Origin: Escherichia coli
GTDB lineage: Bacteria; Pseudomonadota; Gammaproteobacteria; Enterobacterales; Enterobacteriaceae
NCBI RefSeq assembly: GCF_016026235.1
Contig: NZ_CP065613.1
Direction: 5' to 3' (one strand)
Length of the DNA stretch: 64,000 bases
Positions within the stretch are counted from its first letter, which is position 1. Every line of letters begins with the position of its first letter. The notes under the pieces are model-generated. The model worked only from the letters and a program-made list of their open reading frames with translations. It was not told where the DNA came from and ran no database searches. Both the position numbers and the translations under genes were made by a program. Positions 34,055 to 42,886 of the stretch are shown here, one piece after another.

Positions 34055-34130
34055 TGGTGGCCCTTGCTGGATTTGAACCAGCGACCTGGCGATTATGAGT
34101 CGCTCGCTCTCACCACTGAGCTAAAGGGCC
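34055..34130 (-). tRNA. tRNA with CAU anticodon (Ile2-type or Met)
   Basis: 76-nt cloverleaf: acceptor GGCCCTT/AAGGGCC, T-loop TTCAAAT, encoded CCA; close to recalled E. coli ileX. Confidence 0.85.
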
Positions 34131-35095: not shown

Positions 35096-35466
35096 TTTTT
35101 GACCTGCTCTTCATGCATTATGGGGTAAATCTTCACCCCCAGACGTCCTCCAGATACTGGCTGACCACGAACGATATTGATTTCATCAAACTGCTCATCG
35201 TCCATTAACACTCCCGCATGTGTCAGTGCATCCAGTGGTGCTTTCAGGATATTGTCCAGGTCACGACGGCGCTTATCCGGTGGCTCTGCAATAATCTTTA
35301 TCGCCAGTCTTCCGGACAGGCTTAATTTCAGTCGCTGCTGACGGACAATAAGCGCCACATCCCGGCGATAACGCTCACCGGCTTTTGATACAAAATATGT
35401 GTTGTCACGACGTCGCCAGTAAGTATTCACCGTCGGCGGATAAGGTAAAATAAACTCATGGCGCAT
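35092..35466 (-). CDS. rusA: RusA-family Holliday junction resolvase
   Basis: 124 aa, MRHEFILPYPPTVNTYWRR...RRDLDNILKAPLDAL. Confidence 0.9.
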   Translation of the reverse strand: MRHEFILPYPPTVNTYWRRRDNTYFVSKAGERYRRDVALIVRQQRLKLSLSGRLAIKIIAEPPDKRRRDLDNILKAPLDALTHAGVLMDDEQFDEINIVRGQPVSGGRLGVKIYPIMHEEQVKK

Positions 35467-35723
35467 CAGCGCAGCACCTCCTGCACCAGTTTTTCAAACT
35501 TTCCGACTCTGGTTTCCAGCTCTGCCACACAGTCCACCAGCTCATCTACTGCTTTCTGTGCGCGATGCTTCGCCTGCATCAGTTCCCGAAGCGCGGGTAC
35601 CATATCTTTACGGATAGCATCTTTTGTTATGCCCGTTTTTTCGAGTTGTTCAGCATGACGCAGCATTTCCTGCGCGTGTTTACGCAATTGTTCAGGGGTA
35701 AAAGTCATTGTCTGGTTGTTCAA
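35466..35723 (-). CDS. hypothetical coiled-coil protein
   Basis: 85 aa between helicase and rusA. Confidence 0.5.
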   Translation of the reverse strand: MNNQTMTFTPEQLRKHAQEMLRHAEQLEKTGITKDAIRKDMVPALRELMQAKHRAQKAVDELVDCVAELETRVGKFEKLVQEVLR

Positions 35724-36753
35724 AAGAAACGCTCCATCTTACTGCTGTCAGTTCGTTTATTACTGTATCTGCGCGGATTGCCGGGCTTCATGGGAGTGGA
35801 AAGCACCCGTGCACTTTCCTGGTCCACAGGCAGAAAATGTCCGTTATAAAAACGCCGGTAAATCGTTCCCAGAGAACCGTTACGTTGTTTCGTGATATTG
35901 ATTTCTGCGATGCCCCTGGCCTGCGTATCCGGGTTGTACACTTCATCCCTGTAAAGCATCAGAATGATGTCTGCATCCGCCTCTATTTCTCCGGAATTTT
36001 TCAGGTCTGAGTTCATGGGACGTTTATTGGGTCTGGACTCCACACCGCGGGAGAGCTGGCTCAGCGCAATCAACGGAAAACCACCGGATTTTGCCAGGCC
36101 TTTAAGCCCCTTTGAGATTTCACCCACGGCAAGGTCATGACGCCCCGTGGTTCGGGTTTTTATCAGCCCGAGATAATCAACCACCACCAGCGCCGTTTCC
36201 GGATGTTTAATCAGATGGTGTTTCGTTGTTGCGCATATCTCATCAATGGTCAGGTTCGCCTGGTCCACCATCCAGATATTGCGCCCGGTCATCCGCCCCA
36301 CCCCTTGTGAGAAACGCGCCCAGTCTTCATCTTCAAAGTGAGCCACAGATTTCAGGCGTGATACTGGCATCCCTCCAGCCGCAGACACCATACGTTCACC
36401 AATCTGGATGTTCGCCATCTCCATGGTGAACAGAAGCACACCATGCCCCTGCTCAGTCACCTTGTCGATGATGTCCAGCGCAAGTTCGGTTTTCCCCATC
36501 GAAGGACGAGCCGCAATAAATACCAGGTCGCCGGGCTCCATGCCGCCTGTTTTTGCGTCCAGTTCATCAATACCGGTCATCAACGTCCTGGATTTCTCCA
36601 GTCCCTGATTCCGGCATTCAACACGCTCAACCACCTCCGGAAGCACATCATCAATATGTACCGACTGAATAACGCCCTTTTCCGTCGACAATGAGGCCAT
36701 CATGTTCTGTGCATCCTTAAGAGCATCTTCAGCTGCTTCACAGGTATGCGCAT
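35720..36753 (-). pseudogene. DnaB-like replicative helicase, C-terminal part (split by IS600)
   Basis: Walker A AARPSMGKTELAL; first 16 residues of ORF come from the IS600 end. Confidence 0.8.
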
Positions 36754-36817
36754 TGAGGTAGCCTGAGTTTAACGGACACTCCTTCCTGAAATAGAATGGC
36801 ATCAGAAGGAGCTAATA

Positions 36818-37120
36818 ATGAGCAGAAAAAACCAACGTTACTCTAAAGAGTTCAAAGCCGAAGCTGTCAGAACGGTTCTTGAAAATCAACTTTCGATCAG
36901 TGAAGGCGCTTCCCGATTATCCCTTCCTGAAGGCACTTTAGGACAATGGGTTACCGCCGCCAGAAAAGGGCTCGGTACTCCTGGTTCCCGCACGGTGGCT
37001 GAACTGGAATCTGAAATTCTGCAACTGCGTAAGGCGTTAAATGAAGCTCGCCTTGAGCGAGATATATTAAAAAAAGCAACAGCGTATTTTGCACAGGAGT
37101 CGCTGAAAAATACGCGTTAA
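36818..37120 (+). CDS. IS600 OrfA
   Basis: 100 aa HTH protein MSRKNQRYSKEFKAEAV. Confidence 0.9.
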   Translation: MSRKNQRYSKEFKAEAVRTVLENQLSISEGASRLSLPEGTLGQWVTAARKGLGTPGSRTVAELESEILQLRKALNEARLERDILKKATAYFAQESLKNTR

Positions 37121-37155
37121 TCGAACAATGGCGACAACAATTTCCCATTGAAGCG

Positions 37156-37974
37156 ATGTGTCAGGTATTTGGTGTATCCAGGAGCGGTTATTACAACTGG
37201 GTACAGCATGAACCCTCAGACAGAAAACAAAGTGATGAGCGGCTAAAACTGGAGATTAAGGTGGCACATATCCGCACTCGCGAAACATATGGAACCCGGC
37301 GGCTCCAGACGGAGCTGGCAGAGAATGGCATCATCGTTGGTCGTGACCGACTGGCACGTCTTCGTAAGGAGCTAAGGCTACGCTGTAAGCAGAAACGCAA
37401 GTTCAGAGCGACTACGAACCCGAACCACAATCTGCCAGTTGCGCCAAATCTGCTGAACCAGACGTTCGCTCCTACAGCACCAAATCAGGTCTGGGTGGCG
37501 GACCTGACGTATGTTGCCACACAGGAGGGATGGTTGTACCTCGCTGGCATCAAAGATGTTTATACGTGCGAAATTGTCGGCTACGCCATGGGAGAGCGCA
37601 TGACAAAAGAGCTGACAGGTAAAGCCCTGTTTATGGCGCTCAGGAGCCAGCGCCCACCTGCCGGGCTAATCCACCACTCTGATCGAGGTTCACAGTACTG
37701 CGCATACGATTACCGGGTCATACAGGAGCAGTCTGGTCTGAAAACATCAATGTCGCGTAAAGGTAACTGTTACGACAACGCTCCGATGGAAAGCTTCTGG
37801 GGAACGCTGAAAAATGAGAGCCTGAGCCACTATCGTTTTAATAACCGGGATGAAGCCATCTCAGTAATACGGGAATACATTGAGATTTTCTACAATCGTC
37901 AGCGTCGTCACTCTCGTCTGGGGAATATCTCCCCGGCAGCCTTCAGGGAAAAATATCATCAGATGGCTGCTTAA
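37156..37974 (+). CDS. IS600 OrfB (DDE transposase; made as OrfAB by -1 frameshift)
   Basis: 272-aa ORF; A-run AAAAAAAG near orfA 3' end. Confidence 0.9.
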   Translation: MCQVFGVSRSGYYNWVQHEPSDRKQSDERLKLEIKVAHIRTRETYGTRRLQTELAENGIIVGRDRLARLRKELRLRCKQKRKFRATTNPNHNLPVAPNLLNQTFAPTAPNQVWVADLTYVATQEGWLYLAGIKDVYTCEIVGYAMGERMTKELTGKALFMALRSQRPPAGLIHHSDRGSQYCAYDYRVIQEQSGLKTSMSRKGNCYDNAPMESFWGTLKNESLSHYRFNNRDEAISVIREYIEIFYNRQRRHSRLGNISPAAFREKYHQMAA

Positions 37975-38017
37975 AAAAAGAACAAATGGTAGTGTCCGCT
38001 ATTGCCAGTACACCTCA

Positions 38018-38378
38018 CATCGCGTAATTTCTGTAATGCCTCGTTCAGTGTTTTTTCTGCATCGCGCAGTGCGGCATTGCGCCGCAACGCTGCAACATAG
38101 TGCTCCAGTGAAGACTTCACCCAGGTTTTACGCCCGGTATCAGTAATCACCGGGGCAAGTTCTGGCATCTCATTGCACAACAGCACAGGATCAATCACGC
38201 CGGACACACGGGCCTGTCTGCAGATGCCTGTGTAGATATCCCGGTACGGTCGTACAGAAAAAACGTCCGCCGGTAGTGTGGCCAGAATATCCATCACTTC
38301 AGGATCTGCTCCGCGCAGAAAGAACGCGCCGATGACAGCGCCTTCAAGGTCATCGTTACGCCATACTGGAGTTGTCAT
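38018..38378 (-). pseudogene. DnaB-like helicase, N-terminal part
   Basis: ORF 37971..38378 minus IS-derived tail. Confidence 0.7.
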
Positions 38379-39262
38379 GCAGCCACACCTCTGATACGAG
38401 AACGGTAACTGGGCCAGTTAAACGACAACCAGTTGCGTCCCCCGTCTGTGATCCTGTCGGCAATTCGGGGACTGATGAACGCCCACAACTCTTCCGGTGA
38501 GAGGTTACTGATCAGAATGGTGGGCAAGATACTTTCGTACCTGGCGTTGATAATTTCCTGCAAAATAGCCATTTCAGCCGCGCTGCCAAACTGAACGCCA
38601 ACTTCGTCGATGATCAGCAAATCCATTGACGCATAACGCTCAATAACTTCATCCGCTGTTTTTTCGCTGTCATTCCGCCAGCAATTTTTCACAGCACGGG
38701 TAAGGCGCATCACGTCGGTGATCTCCACACTGGCCAGATAGTTACGGATGATGTGTTTTGCCATAGCCACAGCCAGATGATTTTTTCCGGTACCACAACT
38801 GCCGGTCATAACAAGACTGGTACCGTTCTCCAGCATATCTGGCCAGTTCTCCGCATAGCGGCGACAGGCCGCAAGATTTCTGGCTGCGTCAGGATTAACC
38901 TCCAGATAATTATCAAACTCGCAGTCCCGAAAACGCAGGGCAATTCCGGCGTTATCAGTCAGCTCTTCCGCCTTGATGGACGACAGCTCCATGGTCAAAT
39001 CGTTGGCCTCAGCGATTAAGCAGTCAGGGCAGCATGAAATTTTTTCTCTGTCCTCGCCATTACGATCGCTCCACACCAGTATATGCGTGTGATATTCGCC
39101 ATGTTTTTCGCAATATCCGCGACCTTCACGCATCAGGCAGGAACGATAAGGCCATGGCTTTTCGCCCTTCTGAGCAAATGCAATCTCTGCCCGTAACTCA
39201 TCCATTCGCGCCTGTAGTCTTTTTTGTTGTTCACGCAGGTTAAACGTCATCATCGCTGTCAC
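38375..39262 (-). CDS. DnaC-like helicase loader ATPase
   Basis: Walker A GSCGTGKNHLAVAMA, Walker B LLIIDEVG. Confidence 0.85.
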   Translation of the reverse strand: MTAMMTFNLREQQKRLQARMDELRAEIAFAQKGEKPWPYRSCLMREGRGYCEKHGEYHTHILVWSDRNGEDREKISCCPDCLIAEANDLTMELSSIKAEELTDNAGIALRFRDCEFDNYLEVNPDAARNLAACRRYAENWPDMLENGTSLVMTGSCGTGKNHLAVAMAKHIIRNYLASVEITDVMRLTRAVKNCWRNDSEKTADEVIERYASMDLLIIDEVGVQFGSAAEMAILQEIINARYESILPTILISNLSPEELWAFISPRIADRITDGGRNWLSFNWPSYRSRIRGVAA

Positions 39263-39263
39263 C

Positions 39264-40178
39264 TCAGAATGTCAGTTTGTCACTGGATTTACCGAATTTG
39301 TCAGACATGGCTCCCAGGCCAGCCAGGACATCGACCTGTCGCTGTCGCCCACCTCCGGGAGCGGCTGGCTGTTGCCAGAAGTCTTCGAAGTGACGATCGG
39401 GTCCAAAGAACGTCGCTGCCTGCTTCACGAACTGTGTGCCGTTATTTCCTGTGGCACGTATCCAGGCGGCATACCGCTTCACGCCATCAAGCATGGTCTC
39501 CGGTTTTATTCCCTCCCTGATACGGGCTTTCCAGGCTTTGAAGGCTGCGGATTTTGAGTTACCACCAGCACGTTTTGGATATTCCTGCCAGGCCTGTTCA
39601 AATTCCGGTGAATATTCCTGTCGGGCAGAACGCGCTGGTGCAGACGCGTCAGCGGATGCGCCAATAGTGTTTTTACTCTCTGTAGTATTCTCTGAAGTAA
39701 TCTCTGTTGTATTCTCTGTAAGATCGAAATTGGTTTTCCCTTCTCCGCGGCGAGGGGTTTCCCGTGTCCGCGGTGAAGGCTTTCCCTCCTCCGCGAAATT
39801 GGGTTTTACAGTTTCCCGAAAACGGGTTTCCCCATTTCGGGAAAACTGATTGTTTTCATTGATAATTTCATTAAGGCGCTCACAATCTATACGGTAGAAC
39901 ATTTTGTGCTCAAGACGCTTGTTGGTTTCAACCAAAATGCCTCTGGACACAAGATGCTTACGCGCTACAGCCTGTTGTTCAAATGTAAGTCCGGTTTCGT
40001 GTTGTATCTCTTCACGCGTTTTATGTACGCCTTCCGCTGCATGTGCTTTATCCTGCCAGTAAAAAATCTGACCAAAGAAAATAACAGCGTGCGGACTTCC
40101 CATGTATTTAACGAGCCCAGGGTAATAAGCAACCGGATGTCCAAAATCGAGCAGAAGATCAGACGGACGCATAGCCAC
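39264..40178 (-). CDS. replication initiation protein (lambda O-like role)
   Basis: Contains iteron array in its middle; precedes DnaC/DnaB-like genes. Confidence 0.7.
   Translation of the reverse strand: MAMRPSDLLLDFGHPVAYYPGLVKYMGSPHAVIFFGQIFYWQDKAHAAEGVHKTREEIQHETGLTFEQQAVARKHLVSRGILVETNKRLEHKMFYRIDCERLNEIINENNQFSRNGETRFRETVKPNFAEEGKPSPRTRETPRRGEGKTNFDLTENTTEITSENTTESKNTIGASADASAPARSARQEYSPEFEQAWQEYPKRAGGNSKSAAFKAWKARIREGIKPETMLDGVKRYAAWIRATGNNGTQFVKQAATFFGPDRHFEDFWQQPAAPGGGRQRQVDVLAGLGAMSDKFGKSSDKLTF
39676..39845. repeat. origin-like iterons inside replication gene
   Basis: Three ~12-bp CTCTG(T/A)(A/T)GTA(T/A)T units, then GGTTTTCCCTTCTCCGCGG / GGGTTTCCCGTGTCCGCGG / GGCTTTCCCTCCTCCGCG, then inverted TTTCCCGAAAAC units. 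Confidence 0.6.
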
Positions 40179-40392
40179 CTCCCAGGCGTTTAAACATTTT
40201 TCCGGACTGAAACGCCACCAGCGGATAACTCAGGGTATGAGTACGTCCCTGAACCTGGCAGACAACCTTCTGGCTTTCTGTATTGACCAGGCAAACCCGC
40301 AGAACGTGGCCGTTGCTGGTGGTGAACCACTGCCCCACTCGGGGGCAACGGTTGTATCGGTGATACAGGGAATTAACGATGCGGCGAATCAT
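40159..40392 (-). CDS. hypothetical small protein
   Basis: 77 aa; ATGA-coupled to Rha stop. Confidence 0.35.
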   Translation of the reverse strand: MIRRIVNSLYHRYNRCPRVGQWFTTSNGHVLRVCLVNTESQKVVCQVQGRTHTLSYPLVAFQSGKMFKRLGGGYASV

Positions 40393-40952
40393 GGACGCAC
40401 CTCCTTGTCAGAACCATTCAGCCTGGAATCAACAAGTGCAGCACCAAAAACAGCATCACCTACACGGTCGTACAGTTTGCTGGCCAGCGGAGATTCAACA
40501 GCCTTAAGCATTGGGTAAAGCTGGCTTGTCCAGATTTGATGGATTTCACGCAAATGCAGGTATACGCCTCTGGCGTTTTGTGCGACAGATGACATGTCAG
40601 CCGCACCAGCTCCTGATAAGCTCCTCTCCATCTGGTTAAAGGCATTGATGTATGCCTCTTTGAACCGGGCGGCACGTTTACCAGTGAAGCCCATAGCAAG
40701 GAAGGCGAAGCCGTCGCGGGTGATTTGGTAGCAGGGAAGTTTGCGAGTACCGCCGTTGGGCTGGCGTACCAAAATTGATGTCTCCGCAAAATTGCGGGCA
40801 CAAAACTCTGGAGAACAATCCAAAATGCGGATCTTTTTCAGAACATCGTCATGACGTTTAGAGAAGAAGTTGGCAACAGCCAGGGATGAAGTAACAGCCT
40901 GACCATCAACGATGGCAATTTCAGGTTGAGTGAGGGTTGGGATCGTAGCCAT
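40389..40952 (-). CDS. Rha-family phage regulatory protein
   Basis: 187 aa from MATIPTLTQPEIAIVDGQ; C-terminus DGFAFLAMGFTGKRAARFKEAYINAFNQME. Confidence 0.7.
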   Translation of the reverse strand: MATIPTLTQPEIAIVDGQAVTSSLAVANFFSKRHDDVLKKIRILDCSPEFCARNFAETSILVRQPNGGTRKLPCYQITRDGFAFLAMGFTGKRAARFKEAYINAFNQMERSLSGAGAADMSSVAQNARGVYLHLREIHQIWTSQLYPMLKAVESPLASKLYDRVGDAVFGAALVDSRLNGSDKEVRP

Positions 40953-41264
40953 GATGGCAGCCTCTTTGGTGATTTTTAATAACTCACCACCAAAGCTTCT
41001 CACGGCAATAGGTGGTGAGACGTACAGGGGTGAGAAACCGGTCACCAAAGAACCCGGCCCAACCGAAGTTGGCCCTGCACGCCCCACCATAATTTGGGCG
41101 TAATGCTGCTCATGACACAAAAAAACCGCAAGAGCGCGGTTGTGCGCTTTGGTGAATTCCGGGTTCTCACGCCCGGCACCCGCTTTATAAGGTGCGGAGA
41201 CAGTGTAACGTCCCGAAATTGCAGAATCAATATCAAAATGTTGTAGCTGTGGACAACGCGAAGC

Positions 41265-41288
41265 CTTGTTGTTATTGTTTACAACAAG
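41265..41288. promoter_or_regulatory. palindrome CTTGTTGT-N8-ACAACAAG upstream of the 41307 operon
   Basis: Perfect 8-bp inverted repeat about 20 bp before GAGGAAG RBS. Confidence 0.4.
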
Positions 41289-41306
41289 AACCAGAGGAAG
41301 CTTTAA

Positions 41307-41594
41307 ATGCCATCCAGACTGTATAAACAGTTCATCCGTCATCTCGGTGAATCTGAATACATACGAATCCGCATATGGGAAGTGGAGCCTGCTGTATTGG
41401 GTAGCCAGCACAACTACAAATACAGCATGGCTTATGTCGTTGATGGCATGTGTGTGATGCGTTACGACAACGAACGGGGTAAAGGCGATCACAAACACAT
41501 TGGTAGTCAGGAAGTCAGCACCAGCTTTGTCACCATTGAACAACTGCTCGCTGATTTTCTGGCTGACGTTGAATCCATCCGCAGAGGTATCTGA
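41307..41594 (+). CDS. hypothetical protein, first gene of TA-like pair
   Basis: 95 aa; RBS GAGGAAG; stop 1 nt before next ATG. Confidence 0.6.
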   Translation: MPSRLYKQFIRHLGESEYIRIRIWEVEPAVLGSQHNYKYSMAYVVDGMCVMRYDNERGKGDHKHIGSQEVSTSFVTIEQLLADFLADVESIRRGI

Positions 41595-41595
41595 C

Positions 41596-41955
41596 ATGAG
41601 AACCGTAACAATCCGAATCGAGTCAATGGATAATTTCACGGCTGATGTGCTGTCTGCGTTCCAGGAAGCAGCTACCGGAGCAAAAGCAACCAGAGAAAAC
41701 GTTATTTCATTTCCTGACTGGCAAATGATGCATAAGGTACTGACACCAAAACGCATGGACATTCTGATGGCAATGACTGGTGCCGGAGAAATGTCCATCC
41801 GAAAAATTGCAGCCCTGGTTGGACGTGATGTAAAAAGCGTGCATACTGACGTGACCGCACTCATCAGCAACGGTTTACTGGAAAAAAGCGAGCGCGGAAC
41901 GTCATTCCCGTATGACGACATCCACTTTGATTTTACGCTGGGCAAGGCGGCGTAA
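41596..41955 (+). CDS. winged-helix DNA-binding protein, second gene of pair
   Basis: 120 aa; HTH-like MSIRKIAALVGRDVKSVHTDVTALISNGLL. Confidence 0.6.
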   Translation: MRTVTIRIESMDNFTADVLSAFQEAATGAKATRENVISFPDWQMMHKVLTPKRMDILMAMTGAGEMSIRKIAALVGRDVKSVHTDVTALISNGLLEKSERGTSFPYDDIHFDFTLGKAA

Positions 41956-42172
41956 TTTTTCGTATATACCGTGCCGTCATTCCGGCGGCGCTTCACACTC
42001 CACAAAATCACGCCTGAACAACCACAACGGGCTGAAACATTCGTACGGATAGCCGTCACGCAGGTAAATGACTCGCTGCGTTTCAGACTCCCAGCGTATA
42101 ACGTGGACACGACGCCCCCTTCCGTCACGGAACCAGCGATTGAGGACTTGCATAAATTACCCGTAAACATTG

Positions 42173-42886
42173 TCACACCTTCCAGCCAGTAGCCTGAAAC
42201 AGGCCCATTCTCGGGTGATACCAGCGGGTACCACGCTGAACGGCACCACACATCATGTGATGAAACGCCTTCAGAAACGGTTCCACAGCAACAATTTCAC
42301 GACGTGCCAGTAATCCATCTGGCGTCAAAAATTCATGAGTGTCTGTCGGGATGTTGTATGCATTTACAAGCGTGCGACATTTCGCATCTGACATACCGGT
42401 TTTTGCTTTCAGCTGGCGATATCCGGCATAGCCCTCTCGAATGGTACCCTTTTTGATTTGCTCAACTGTTTCGGCTACGTGGCTGATTTTTTCTTCCACC
42501 TGAGTGATCCGTTTCTGCTGACGAACAGCCTCGAGCGCCATTGCGGCCACCATTTCGATTTCGCTCATTGGTTTGCGGATCTGTTCTTCCAGTTCGCGCC
42601 AGCGATCTACCAGGCGAGCAGTGAATTCAGGACAGAGCTGTGCGACGACAATGATGCTGTCGCGCTTACCTTGTTCTCCTTCAAACAGGTAATGCTCATA
42701 TTGAACTTTAAAACCTAAGTTATTGATTCTTTCGGAAACCTCAATTTGAGGAGACCGGACAACGCCACCTTTGGCTAATGTTTCAATAGTGCGTTTCACA
42801 TTGTCATGACGCTTACCCACCAGTTCTGCGATCTCAACGCTGGTCATGGATGCTTTGTCGTTAAAAATTGCGGTGTTCACTGCCAT
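42173..42886 (-). CDS. phage antirepressor/Rha-like regulatory protein
   Basis: 237 aa from MAVNTAIFNDKASMTSVEIAELVGKRHDNVKR; GGAG RBS. Confidence 0.65.
   Translation of the reverse strand: MAVNTAIFNDKASMTSVEIAELVGKRHDNVKRTIETLAKGGVVRSPQIEVSERINNLGFKVQYEHYLFEGEQGKRDSIIVVAQLCPEFTARLVDRWRELEEQIRKPMSEIEMVAAMALEAVRQQKRITQVEEKISHVAETVEQIKKGTIREGYAGYRQLKAKTGMSDAKCRTLVNAYNIPTDTHEFLTPDGLLARREIVAVEPFLKAFHHMMCGAVQRGTRWYHPRMGLFQATGWKV

What the first reader, a model, noticed from the sequence alone, without database searches (positions are those of the whole stretch)
39676..39845. Iteron array inside the replication initiator gene
Tandem 12-bp CTCTG-type repeats are followed by three 18-19-bp GG(N)TTTCCC-N3-4-TCCGCGG repeats and inverted TTTCCCGAAAAC units, all within the coding sequence of the O-like gene. 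This matches the lambda arrangement where ori iterons lie inside O and encode a flexible linker.
Basis: partly seen in the sequence, partly recalled or inferred. Interest (0 to 1): 0.45.

Follow-up and report, generated by a model that had tools for sequence, protein, structure and literature searches.

The report
Replication origin inside phage initiator gene
The repeats are real and are most likely a lambda/phi80-style replication origin built into a prophage initiator gene; its 12-base repeat is conserved letter for letter in phage and plasmid initiator genes from three bacterial phyla.

Summary
Observation confirmed, with corrections. The minus-strand gene 39264-40172 (302 aa, PHROG 270 replication initiator) holds two arrays. 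One is five 23-bp units at 39732-39846, not three 18-19-bp repeats. The other is four 12-bp units at 39674-39721. The 23-bp array is the most periodic stretch of the 64-kb window (z about 10). Each unit is read in a different codon phase, so it is a DNA repeat, not a peptide repeat.

Both arrays encode a predicted disordered linker between a winged-helix N-domain and a helical C-domain. A DnaC-like loader gene follows. The phage helicase gene is broken by IS600.

In 92 of 102 unique related genes, 23-bp iterons precede sense-strand (A/T)CAGAGAnTACn repeats. Iteron sequence changes with N-domain subfamily. One unit shares 14 exact bases with annotated phi80 gp15 sites.

The 12-mer is constrained at the DNA level. 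Its Glu codon is GAG 226 times and GAA never, against 402:1133 elsewhere in the same genes. It occurs in phages or plasmids of Proteobacteria, Firmicutes and Cyanobacteria.

Best reading: a lambda-type in-gene origin, with iterons plus a repeated unwinding element. No binding or replication experiment exists. It is a new member of a known kind. The cross-phylum 12-mer is the interesting part.

The parts
39264..40172 (-). Replication initiator gene, 302 aa from the ATG at 40172 (the mechanical ORF starts at GTG 40178).
   Evidence: ORF list. PHROG 270 'replication initiation protein', E 1e-65. About 97% DNA identity to 'replication protein O' of Stx1a/Stx2a-converting phages. Homologues start at MRPSD. 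No Pfam or NCBIfam hit.
39858..40172 (-). Coding for the N-terminal winged-helix domain (aa 1-105), the presumed iteron-binding domain.
39844..39874 (.). First AT-rich, low-stability stretch, just gene-upstream of the iterons.
   Evidence: It is the least stable 30-step window of the gene by nearest-neighbour energy, -33.2 against a mean of -42.6 kcal/mol.
39732..39846 (.). Iteron array of five 23-bp units. On the + strand they read GGnTTTCCC...; on the sense strand, nnTTTCGsGrA-N4-GGGAAAnCC. Each unit is an imperfect palindrome. A half-unit, GATCGAAATT, follows at 39722-39731.
   Evidence: The units start in codon phases 1, 2, 0, 1, 2, so the peptide is not repeated. TTCCCGAAAACGGG at 39813-39826 is identical to annotated phi80 gp15 sites.
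39674..39721 (.). Four tandem 12-bp units, reading (A/T)CAGAGAnTACn on the sense strand. They are the proposed repeated DNA-unwinding element. The conserved module with its flanks is about 39666-39725, including a GATC and an A-run.
   Evidence: GC is 33% against 55% in the flanks. It is among the least stable stretches of the gene. The same element occurs in more than 120 viral contigs, always in the same frame, and in 120 phage and 36 plasmid records. Synonymous sites are frozen.
39264..39665 (-). Coding for the rest of the linker and the exchangeable C-terminal helical domain (EFEQAWQEYPKR... type), the presumed helicase or loader recruitment domain.
   Evidence: AF2 pLDDT is 86-93 for aa 185-271. 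PHROG hits to primosomal and DnaD-like families. The same C-domain is joined to an unrelated N-domain in phiP27 L17, with the junction exactly at about 39666.
38375..39262 (-). DnaC-like helicase loader gene immediately downstream.
   Evidence: PHROG 50, E 5e-90. NCBIfam DnaC-like matches, below the curated cut-offs.
36754..38017 (+). IS600 (IS3 family) inserted in the phage DnaB-like helicase gene. The helicase fragments are 38018-38378 and 35462-36753.
   Evidence: Synteny with Stx1 phage L001 is interrupted only by this segment. It is 99% identical to annotated IS600 copies. The helicase N-fragment hits PHROG 23150 and PHROG 19.

Best explanation
Window 39666-39880 is most likely the origin of vegetative replication of a lambdoid prophage, embedded in its own initiator gene as in lambda and phi80.

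Proposed mechanism (inferred throughout). Dimers of the initiator's winged-helix N-domain bind the five palindromic 23-bp-phased iterons and bend the DNA into an O-some-like complex. The strain opens the adjacent 33%-GC block of four 12-bp repeats. The C-terminal domain then recruits the phage DnaC-like loader and DnaB-like helicase onto the opened strands.

The 12-mers are more than AT-rich filler. Their exact sequence is conserved across phyla, which implies sequence-specific recognition. The likely mode is binding of one strand as ssDNA, as winged-helix plasmid Rep proteins do with the repeated 13-mers of their unwinding elements.

The module also marks the joint where N-domain plus origin is recombined with different C-domains.

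In this particular prophage the helicase gene is broken by IS600. The origin looks intact but probably cannot fire without help.

Shown here: the anatomy, DNA-level constraint, iteron sequence tracking N-domain subfamily (this can reflect linkage), and similarity to annotated phi80 sites. Not shown: binding, unwinding, origin activity.
For: The repeats are real and far beyond chance.

The 23-bp period is not a multiple of 3, and the units are read in phases 1, 2, 0, 1, 2. Selection therefore acts on DNA.

The arrays encode the disordered linker, aa 108-184, between a winged-helix N-domain and a helical C-domain.

The gene is a PHROG 270 initiator followed by a DnaC-like loader and a DnaB-like helicase.

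In 102 unique related genes, the 125 nt before the 12-mers has its best period at 23 in 92 and at 21-24 in all. N- and C-domain control stretches show no preferred period.

Iteron sequence differs between N-domain subfamilies, while the units within one gene resemble each other.

A 14-nt identity to annotated phi80 gp15 sites exceeds the maximum of 12 nt seen in 2000 control pieces.

The 12-mer block is 33% GC. It holds the global stability minimum in 56 of 92 unique genes, mean z 2.4.

DNA-level constraint was measured in samples chosen by N-domain only, so they are blind to the linker. Synonymous third positions are 88% identical in the module against 42% in the N-domain. The Glu codon is GAG 123:0 GAA in enterobacterial genes and 103:0 in 29-35%-GC Firmicute phage genes. 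Elsewhere in the same genes the counts are 261:589 and 141:544. Non-synonymous E to K, Y or D changes do occur.

Lambda and phi80 keep one recognisable unit, TCAGAGAATTCT or TCCGAGAATTCT, in the same frame just after their AT-rich region.

Precedents in the literature. Lambda-type origins lie in the O gene, iterons plus an AT-rich region, and O binds ssDNA containing the AT-rich region (PMC7466680). [quoted passage not shown]
Against: No experiment exists for this initiator family. Binding, unwinding and origin function are all inferred.

The N-domain is not detectably homologous to lambda O or phi80 gp15: no Pfam hit, and hhalign gives probabilities of 0.3% and 2.4%.

A second stretch, equally unstable, lies on the other side of the iterons at 39844-39874. 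The unwinding site is therefore not uniquely predicted.

Nucleotide conservation of the 12-mer could be maintained partly by repeated recombination at this joint rather than by origin function.

Repeat units within and between arrays are not independent observations, so the Fisher p-values (about 1e-56 and 1e-61) overstate significance.

The helicase gene here is disrupted.
Confidence: 0.72

Rival explanations
1. The 12-mer module is conserved mainly because it is the homologous-recombination joint where phages swap the specificity module (N-domain plus iterons) and the host-machinery module (C-domain). Its sequence would have no role of its own in origin opening.
For: Mosaic breakpoints fall exactly at the module. 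phiP27 L17 shares the C-domain up to about 39666 but has another N-domain, other repeats and no 12-mers. Within one N-subfamily at least five different C-domains follow the array. There are 16 C-domain clusters against one N-superfamily. The lambda record annotates recombination points 39-47 nt after iteron 4. HannyBb shares 40 nt at 97.5% identity while its flanks are unrelated.
Against: Recombination between phages of Staphylococcus, Bacillus, Nostoc and E. coli is unlikely to homogenise 9 of 12 positions in genes of 29-58% GC. The module always keeps its position and polarity next to the iterons. It is also a local stability minimum. A joint would be useful only if the sequence were already conserved for some other reason. 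The two readings are not exclusive.
Confidence: 0.15
2. The iterons are initiator-binding sites used for autoregulation, such as a transcription roadblock inside the gene, copy-number control or handcuffing. The true origin would lie elsewhere in the prophage.
For: Iteron plasmids use the same Rep-binding repeats for control as well as for initiation (PMC4980987 and PMC4081077 give background). Nothing here measures replication.
Against: The layout of iterons, an unstable repeated element and a loader gene copies lambda and phi80, where the in-gene iterons are the origin (PMC7466680). No other comparably periodic region exists in the 64-kb window. The scan found no above-chance promoter for the repeats to regulate.
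Confidence: 0.08
3. The repeats are only a low-complexity protein linker produced by slippage, with no function at the DNA level.
For: The 12-bp units are in frame and encode T-E-x-T repeats in a predicted disordered linker. Copy number varies from 2 to 5 among near-identical genes.
Against: The 23-bp units change frame at each copy. In the 12-mers the variable nucleotides are positions 1, 8 and 12. That covers a first, a second and a third codon position and yields residues as different as N, I, T and S. Meanwhile synonymous sites are fixed and GAA never appears. E to K, Y or D replacements are tolerated.
Confidence: 0.04

Closest known systems
ori-lambda within gene O, and the phi80 origin within gene 15
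   Same: The origin lies in the middle of the initiator gene and encodes the interdomain linker. The iterons are palindromic with a TCCC/GGGA-type core and about two-turn spacing: lambda 20/24/23 and phi80 20/21/21, against 23 here. An AT-rich unstable region lies on the C-terminal side, and a helicase-loading gene comes next. There is a 14-nt identity with phi80 gp15 sites. Lambda and phi80 retain one 12-mer-like unit, TC(A/C)GAGAATTCT, in the same frame (PMC7466680).
   Different: The N-domain is not detectably related in sequence. There are five units in strict 23-bp phase. The AT-rich tract is replaced by four well-conserved 12-bp repeats. The partner genes are a DnaC-like loader plus the phage's own DnaB-like helicase, not lambda P. 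The C-domain belongs to another family.
Unwinding-element 13-mers of iteron plasmids (RK2 oriV/TrfA, F/RepE), bound as ssDNA by winged-helix Rep proteins (PMC4081077)
   Same: Iterons sit next to about four tandem 12-13-nt repeats whose exact sequence, not just AT content, matters. The initiator is a winged-helix protein.
   Different: Plasmid Reps have two winged-helix domains and their origins lie outside the gene. Here the model shows one winged-helix domain plus an unrelated helical C-domain, and the origin is coding. No ssDNA binding has been tested.
In-gene origins of SPP1 gene 38 (oriL), the putative one in staphylococcal phage 80alpha ORF20, and RepA_N plasmids such as pSK41
DnaA-trios and the DnaD recognition element (5'-TnnT-3' pairs) of Bacillus subtilis oriC (PMC10201434)
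   Same: These are short periodic ssDNA motifs in the unwinding region that direct strand-specific loading. The antisense strand of the 12-mer reads TAG TAA TCT CTG, which contains TnnTnnT.
   Different: This is a resemblance of pattern only. Nothing links DnaA or DnaD to these phage origins.

Membership tests
Lambda-type in-gene iteron origin (ori-lambda / phi80 ori class) | Lies inside the initiator ORF, between the N- and C-domain coding parts, and encodes a flexible linker | tested here: met
   Arrays at 39674-39846 lie within gene 39264-40172. They encode aa 111-166, inside the pLDDT<50 segment 108-184.
Lambda-type in-gene iteron origin (ori-lambda / phi80 ori class) | Four or more direct repeats with internal dyad symmetry, spaced about two helical turns apart | tested here: met
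   Five units at 23 bp with palindromic arms. Lambda spacing is 20/24/23 and phi80 spacing is 20/21/21.
Lambda-type in-gene iteron origin (ori-lambda / phi80 ori class) | AT-rich, easily melted region next to the iterons on the promoter-distal side | tested here: met
   39666-39725 is 33% GC. Nearest-neighbour stability is near the gene minimum. A second minimum lies on the other side, at 39844-39874.
Lambda-type in-gene iteron origin (ori-lambda / phi80 ori class) | Iterons are bound by the initiator's N-terminal domain | not testable with these tools
   Indirect evidence only: iteron sequence differs by N-domain subfamily, and there is a 14-nt identity to annotated phi80 gp15 sites.
Lambda-type in-gene iteron origin (ori-lambda / phi80 ori class) | The fragment supports initiator-dependent replication | not testable with these tools
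   This needs a plasmid or marker-frequency experiment.
Lambda O protein family (Pfam PF04492, Phage_rep_O) | Significant match to the family profile | tested here: not met
   Pfam scan found no domain with E<=0.001. NCBIfam found none.
Lambda O protein family (Pfam PF04492, Phage_rep_O) | Remote homology of the N-domain to lambda O or phi80 gp15 | tested here: inconclusive
   hhalign gives probability 0.3% (lambda) and 2.4%, E 0.019 (phi80). Both align the same helix-turn-helix register. The W of the YW motif aligns with lambda's YGW. Lambda O and this protein both hit PHROGs 678 and 345, but those matches may be driven by the linker.
PHROG 270 replication initiation proteins | Full-length profile match | tested here: met
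   E 1.1e-65 over residues 3-303. Bacillus phage PM1's initiator falls in the same PHROG.
Iteron-plasmid Rep / unwinding-element 13-mer origins | Rep protein made of two winged-helix domains | tested here: not met
   The AF2 model shows one winged-helix domain (aa 17-106) and an all-helical C-domain.
Iteron-plasmid Rep / unwinding-element 13-mer origins | Tandem sequence-conserved 12-13-mers beside the iterons, bound as ssDNA by the initiator | tested here: inconclusive
   The repeats and their sequence constraint are shown. ssDNA binding cannot be tested here.

The most novel reading that the evidence does not exclude
The (A/T)CAGAGAnTACn repeat would be a previously unrecognised, near-universal origin element. 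It would be a sequence-specific opening or loading signal that has stayed identical at 9 of 12 nucleotides in phage and plasmid initiator genes of Proteobacteria, Firmicutes and Cyanobacteria, while the neighbouring iterons and protein domains diverged beyond recognition. It would be read either by a conserved surface of the winged-helix N-domain (the invariant YW motif) as ssDNA, or by a universally conserved replisome component. Lambda's classical AT-rich region would then be a decayed copy of it.
Probability: 0.3. Interest if true: 0.8.

Novelty: new member of a known kind. Interest (0 to 1): 0.5.

Why it matters
For this window, the result places the probable origin of a Stx-phage-like prophage and shows that its replication module is disabled by IS600.

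More broadly, it defines a simple sequence signature: a winged-helix N-domain with a YW motif, then 4-7 iterons at 23 bp, then (A/T)CAGAGAnTACn repeats. That signature could locate origins in hundreds of phages and some plasmids that have no annotated ori.

It also raises a testable question. Why is a 12-nt element frozen at synonymous sites from Staphylococcus phages (about 30% GC) to cyanophages (58% GC)? If the element is read sequence-specifically, it would extend the idea that the unwinding element carries information. [quoted passage not shown] Extending it to phage origins would offer a handle for origin prediction, for decoy-based phage resistance and for Stx-phage replication control.

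Tried and rejected
- Pfam and NCBIfam scans of the initiator found no family.
- A PDB sequence search found no relative.
- hhalign against the lambda O and phi80 gp15 N-domains was not significant.
- An Rfam scan of 39200-40300 gave only a chance-level lncRNA hit at E 0.87, so an RNA element is unlikely.
- The promoter/terminator scan found nothing above shuffled expectation. The one 'terminator' is simply iteron unit 5's palindrome.
- Full-text searches for the 12-mer strings and the peptides TEITTE/TENTTE found no relevant paper. Keyword searches found only the general in-gene-origin concept.
- My first codon counts came from loci retrieved with a DNA pattern and were therefore biased. I repeated them on two samples chosen by N-domain protein only.
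- Primase trinucleotides (CTG, CTA/TTA), IHF and DnaA boxes as readers of the 12-mer were considered from memory. They were dropped for lack of any test.

Full report
**1. What is there.**

The finding lies inside a minus-strand ORF, 39264-40178. Homologues begin at MRPSD, so the likely start is the ATG at 40172, giving 302 aa.

The protein matches PHROG 270 'replication initiation protein' (E 1e-65) and weaker 'O-like', 'DnaD-like' and 'primosomal' PHROGs. It has no Pfam, NCBIfam or PDB sequence relative.

The gene is about 97% identical in DNA to 'replication protein O' of Stx1a/Stx2a-converting phages. In those phages it is followed by a DnaC-like loader and a DnaB-like helicase.

The loader is present in the window at 38375-39262. 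The helicase gene is split by an IS600 copy at about 36754-38017.

**2. The observation.**

On the + strand there are four contiguous 12-bp units, TAnTCTCTGnn(G/A), at 39674-39721.

Next to them is an array of five 23-bp units at 39732-39846.

All five units are in register. Each is an imperfect palindrome, TTTCss-N5-ssGAAA.

The array is the most periodic 121-nt stretch of the whole 64 kb, with lag-23 match 0.64 and z about 10. The two arrays are two of only three tandem repeats TRF reports in the window.

**3. DNA repeat or peptide repeat?**

Twenty-three is not a multiple of three. The five units start in codon phases 1, 2, 0, 1, 2 and encode unrelated peptides. The iterons are therefore selected as DNA.

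The 12-mers are in frame, reading ACA GAG AnT ACn for T-E-[N/I/T/S]-T, so they needed a separate test (section 5).

An AlphaFold model built on 25 homologues shows three parts:
- a winged-helix N-domain, aa 17-106, pLDDT 66-83;
- a disordered segment, aa 108-184, pLDDT about 30, which contains everything the two arrays encode;
- a confident helical C-domain, aa 185-271.

**4. Relatives.**

Klebsiella phage Kp4884-1 has a homologous N-domain (50% identity). It carries five 23-bp GAATGGACTTTCCCC iterons and three 12-mers.

Escherichia phage HannyBb has a different N-domain and different iterons (CATTTTGACC). Its 12-mer block is nonetheless nearly identical, 97.5% over 40 nt.

A 71-nt query covering only the 12-mer block hit 120 phage records. 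The hosts include E. coli, Klebsiella, Acinetobacter, Vibrio, Pseudomonas, Burkholderia, Erwinia, Bacillus, Staphylococcus, Lactobacillus and Synechococcus. The hits were almost always under genes annotated as replication, DnaD or primosomal proteins, or as hypothetical.

The same query hit 36 plasmid records, including Nostoc and Bacillus plasmids.

In every one the motif is in the same codon phase within an ORF of about 150-460 aa, the shortest of which are cut by locus ends.

I inspected these cases directly:
- Staphylococcus phage 37 ORF012 (33% GC);
- Bacillus phages PM1 and BtCS33;
- Lactobacillus phage mv4 orf292;
- Synechococcus phage Ssp-JY37 (58% GC);
- Nostoc plasmid pNPUN02.

The N-domains of these genes form one BLAST-linked superfamily with about ten subfamilies at 45% identity. 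The C-domains fall into 16 clusters.

In 102 unique genes, the 125 nt preceding the 12-mers has its best period at 23 in 92 and at 21-24 in all. Control stretches from the N- and C-domain coding parts show no preferred period.

Iteron sequence differs between subfamilies. Examples are GGTCAAAATGACC, GGGCAAATTGCCC, TGCGGGAATCCCGCA, TGGCGGAAAGCGCCA, TACGTTGAAACGTA and CTTAAGAAACTTAAGAATGGA.

**5. The 12-mer is constrained as DNA.**

The pattern scan biases codon counts. I therefore drew two samples by N-domain protein similarity only. One was enterobacterial (39 unique genes). The other was staphylococcal/Firmicute (40 unique genes, 29-35% GC).

Every gene in both samples has the array.

| Measure | Enterobacterial sample | Firmicute sample |
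|---|---|---|
| Glu position in the units, GAG:GAA | 123:0 | 103:0 |
| Glu codons elsewhere in the same genes, GAG:GAA | 261:589 | 141:544 |

Replacements that change the amino acid do occur at that position: AAG (K), TAT (Y) and GAT (D).

The variable nucleotides are positions 1, 8 and 12 of the unit. These are a first, a second and a third codon position. Positions 2-7 and 9-11 are nearly fixed.

In pairs with under 80% N-domain identity, synonymous third positions are 42% identical in the N-domain but 88% (190/216) in the module.

Units are not independent, because of tandem duplication and shared descent, so the p-values are inflated. The pattern nevertheless recurs in two host phyla whose N-domain subfamilies share no direct BLAST hit with each other.

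**6. Link to characterised origins.**

The lambda record annotates four iterons spaced 20/24/23 bp inside O. The phi80 record annotates four gp15 sites spaced 20/21/21 bp inside gene 15.

The window string TTCCCGAAAACGGG (39813-39826) is identical to the phi80 sites. In 2000 control comparisons the longest shared string was 12 nt.

After their iterons, lambda and phi80 have the AT-rich tract. It is followed by TC(A/C)GAGAATTCT in the same reading frame. That is 11 of 12 identical to the window's unit TCAGAGAATACT.

The 12-mer block therefore occupies the position of lambda's AT-rich region, where O-dependent unwinding occurs (PMC7466680 and references therein). The block is 33% GC. It is one of the two least stable stretches of the gene. 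In 56 of 92 unique relatives it holds the global stability minimum.

**7. Mechanism proposed.**

N-domain dimers bind the phased palindromic iterons. The resulting nucleoprotein complex melts the 12-mer block. The C-domain recruits the loader and helicase.

The exact conservation of the 12-mer suggests sequence-specific reading. The best precedent is the set of winged-helix plasmid Reps. They hold iteron dsDNA and one strand of the repeated unwinding-element 13-mers simultaneously, and every 13-mer is required (PMC4081077). The B. subtilis DnaD recognition element (TnnT pairs) is a second precedent for information in the unwinding region (PMC10201434).

A universally conserved Y-W pair at the end of the first long helix of the N-domain is a candidate contact. 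All of these steps are inferences.

**8. The module as a recombination joint.**

phiP27 L17 has the same C-domain as the window gene, joined at ...KNT|IGASADAS (about 39666). Its N-domain is unrelated, its repeats are different, and it has no 12-mers.

Within the window's N-subfamily, at least five C-domain types follow the array. Lambda's annotated recombination points lie at the equivalent place.

This supports a rival, or more likely an additional, role for the module.

**9. Novelty and limits.**

In-gene iteron origins are textbook for lambda. They are assumed for SPP1 G38P and 80alpha ORF20 (PMC5499656). The locus is therefore a new member of a known kind.

I found no paper describing the 12-mer or its cross-phylum conservation. 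The library lacks much of the older subscription literature, including the 1979-81 comparisons of lambdoid origins. Those comparisons, as I recall, already noted conservation to the right of the iterons among lambdoid phages.

No experiment supports binding, unwinding or origin activity in this family.

Noticed in passing
window 36754-38017 (fragments 38018-38378 and 35462-36753): An IS600 (IS3 family) copy interrupts the prophage's DnaB-like helicase gene. The replication module is probably non-functional although the initiator and origin look intact.
   Followed up: partly
L256 (Bacillus amyloliquefaciens plasmid pBSG3, NC_014104.1), locus about 1480-1640: An orphan origin module sits on an 8.4-kb plasmid. 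It has three iterons, CCTACAGGGAAAGA (the type found in Bacillus phage PM1), plus three ACAGAGATTACT units. Only an 88-aa ORF fragment covers it and there is no N-domain. It could be a gene remnant or a phage-origin decoy.
   Followed up: no
L257 (Nostoc punctiforme plasmid pNPUN02), CDS 599-2104: A 502-aa 'hypothetical protein' upstream of a DnaB-like helicase has the same layout: a YW N-domain, 23-bp GGTCAACAAAC iterons, then ACAGAGATTACTTCAAAGATTACTTCAGAGATTACA. This extends the architecture to cyanobacterial plasmids.
   Followed up: partly
L258 (phage phiP27 L17, CDS 1301-2227): This gene has the same C-domain as the window gene but a different N-domain. Its own repeats are TCAGAATCTGA palindromes with a period of about 15 nt, and AAACATGATCCGCAAG twice. 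It may carry a different in-gene origin type without the 12-mer.
   Followed up: no
L132, L151, L126 compared with window 39674-39721: Among genes 99-100% identical in the N-domain, the 12-mer copy number varies (4 or 5 units). Position 8 of the unit flips between A, T and G, giving N, I or S. The array is dynamic (slippage or conversion) while the other positions stay fixed.
   Followed up: partly
window 39722-39725, and the equivalent position in L002, L003 and most enterobacterial relatives: A GATC (Dam site) is conserved exactly at the boundary between the last (half) iteron and the first 12-mer in many enterobacterial members. SeqA or Dam involvement was not examined.
   Followed up: no
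window 39674-39721, + strand: The antisense strand of each unit reads TAG TAA TCT CTG. That is two DnaA-trio-like triplets and a TnnTnnT run resembling the B. subtilis DnaD recognition element. This is a resemblance of pattern only.
   Followed up: no
window 40389-42251 (-): The mechanical ORF list shows a 620-aa ORF here whose translation looks like non-coding read-through. It overlaps real-looking genes: only its last part resembles the antirepressor of the Stx phage. Synteny with the Stx1 phage drops to 78-84% identity beyond 41233.
   Followed up: no
window 9525-9566 and 34055-34130: The only other tandem repeat in the window is 21 bp x 2 at 9525-9566. A tRNA-Met gene lies on the minus strand at 34055-34130, about 1.3 kb from the end of the region syntenic with the Stx phage.
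   Followed up: no
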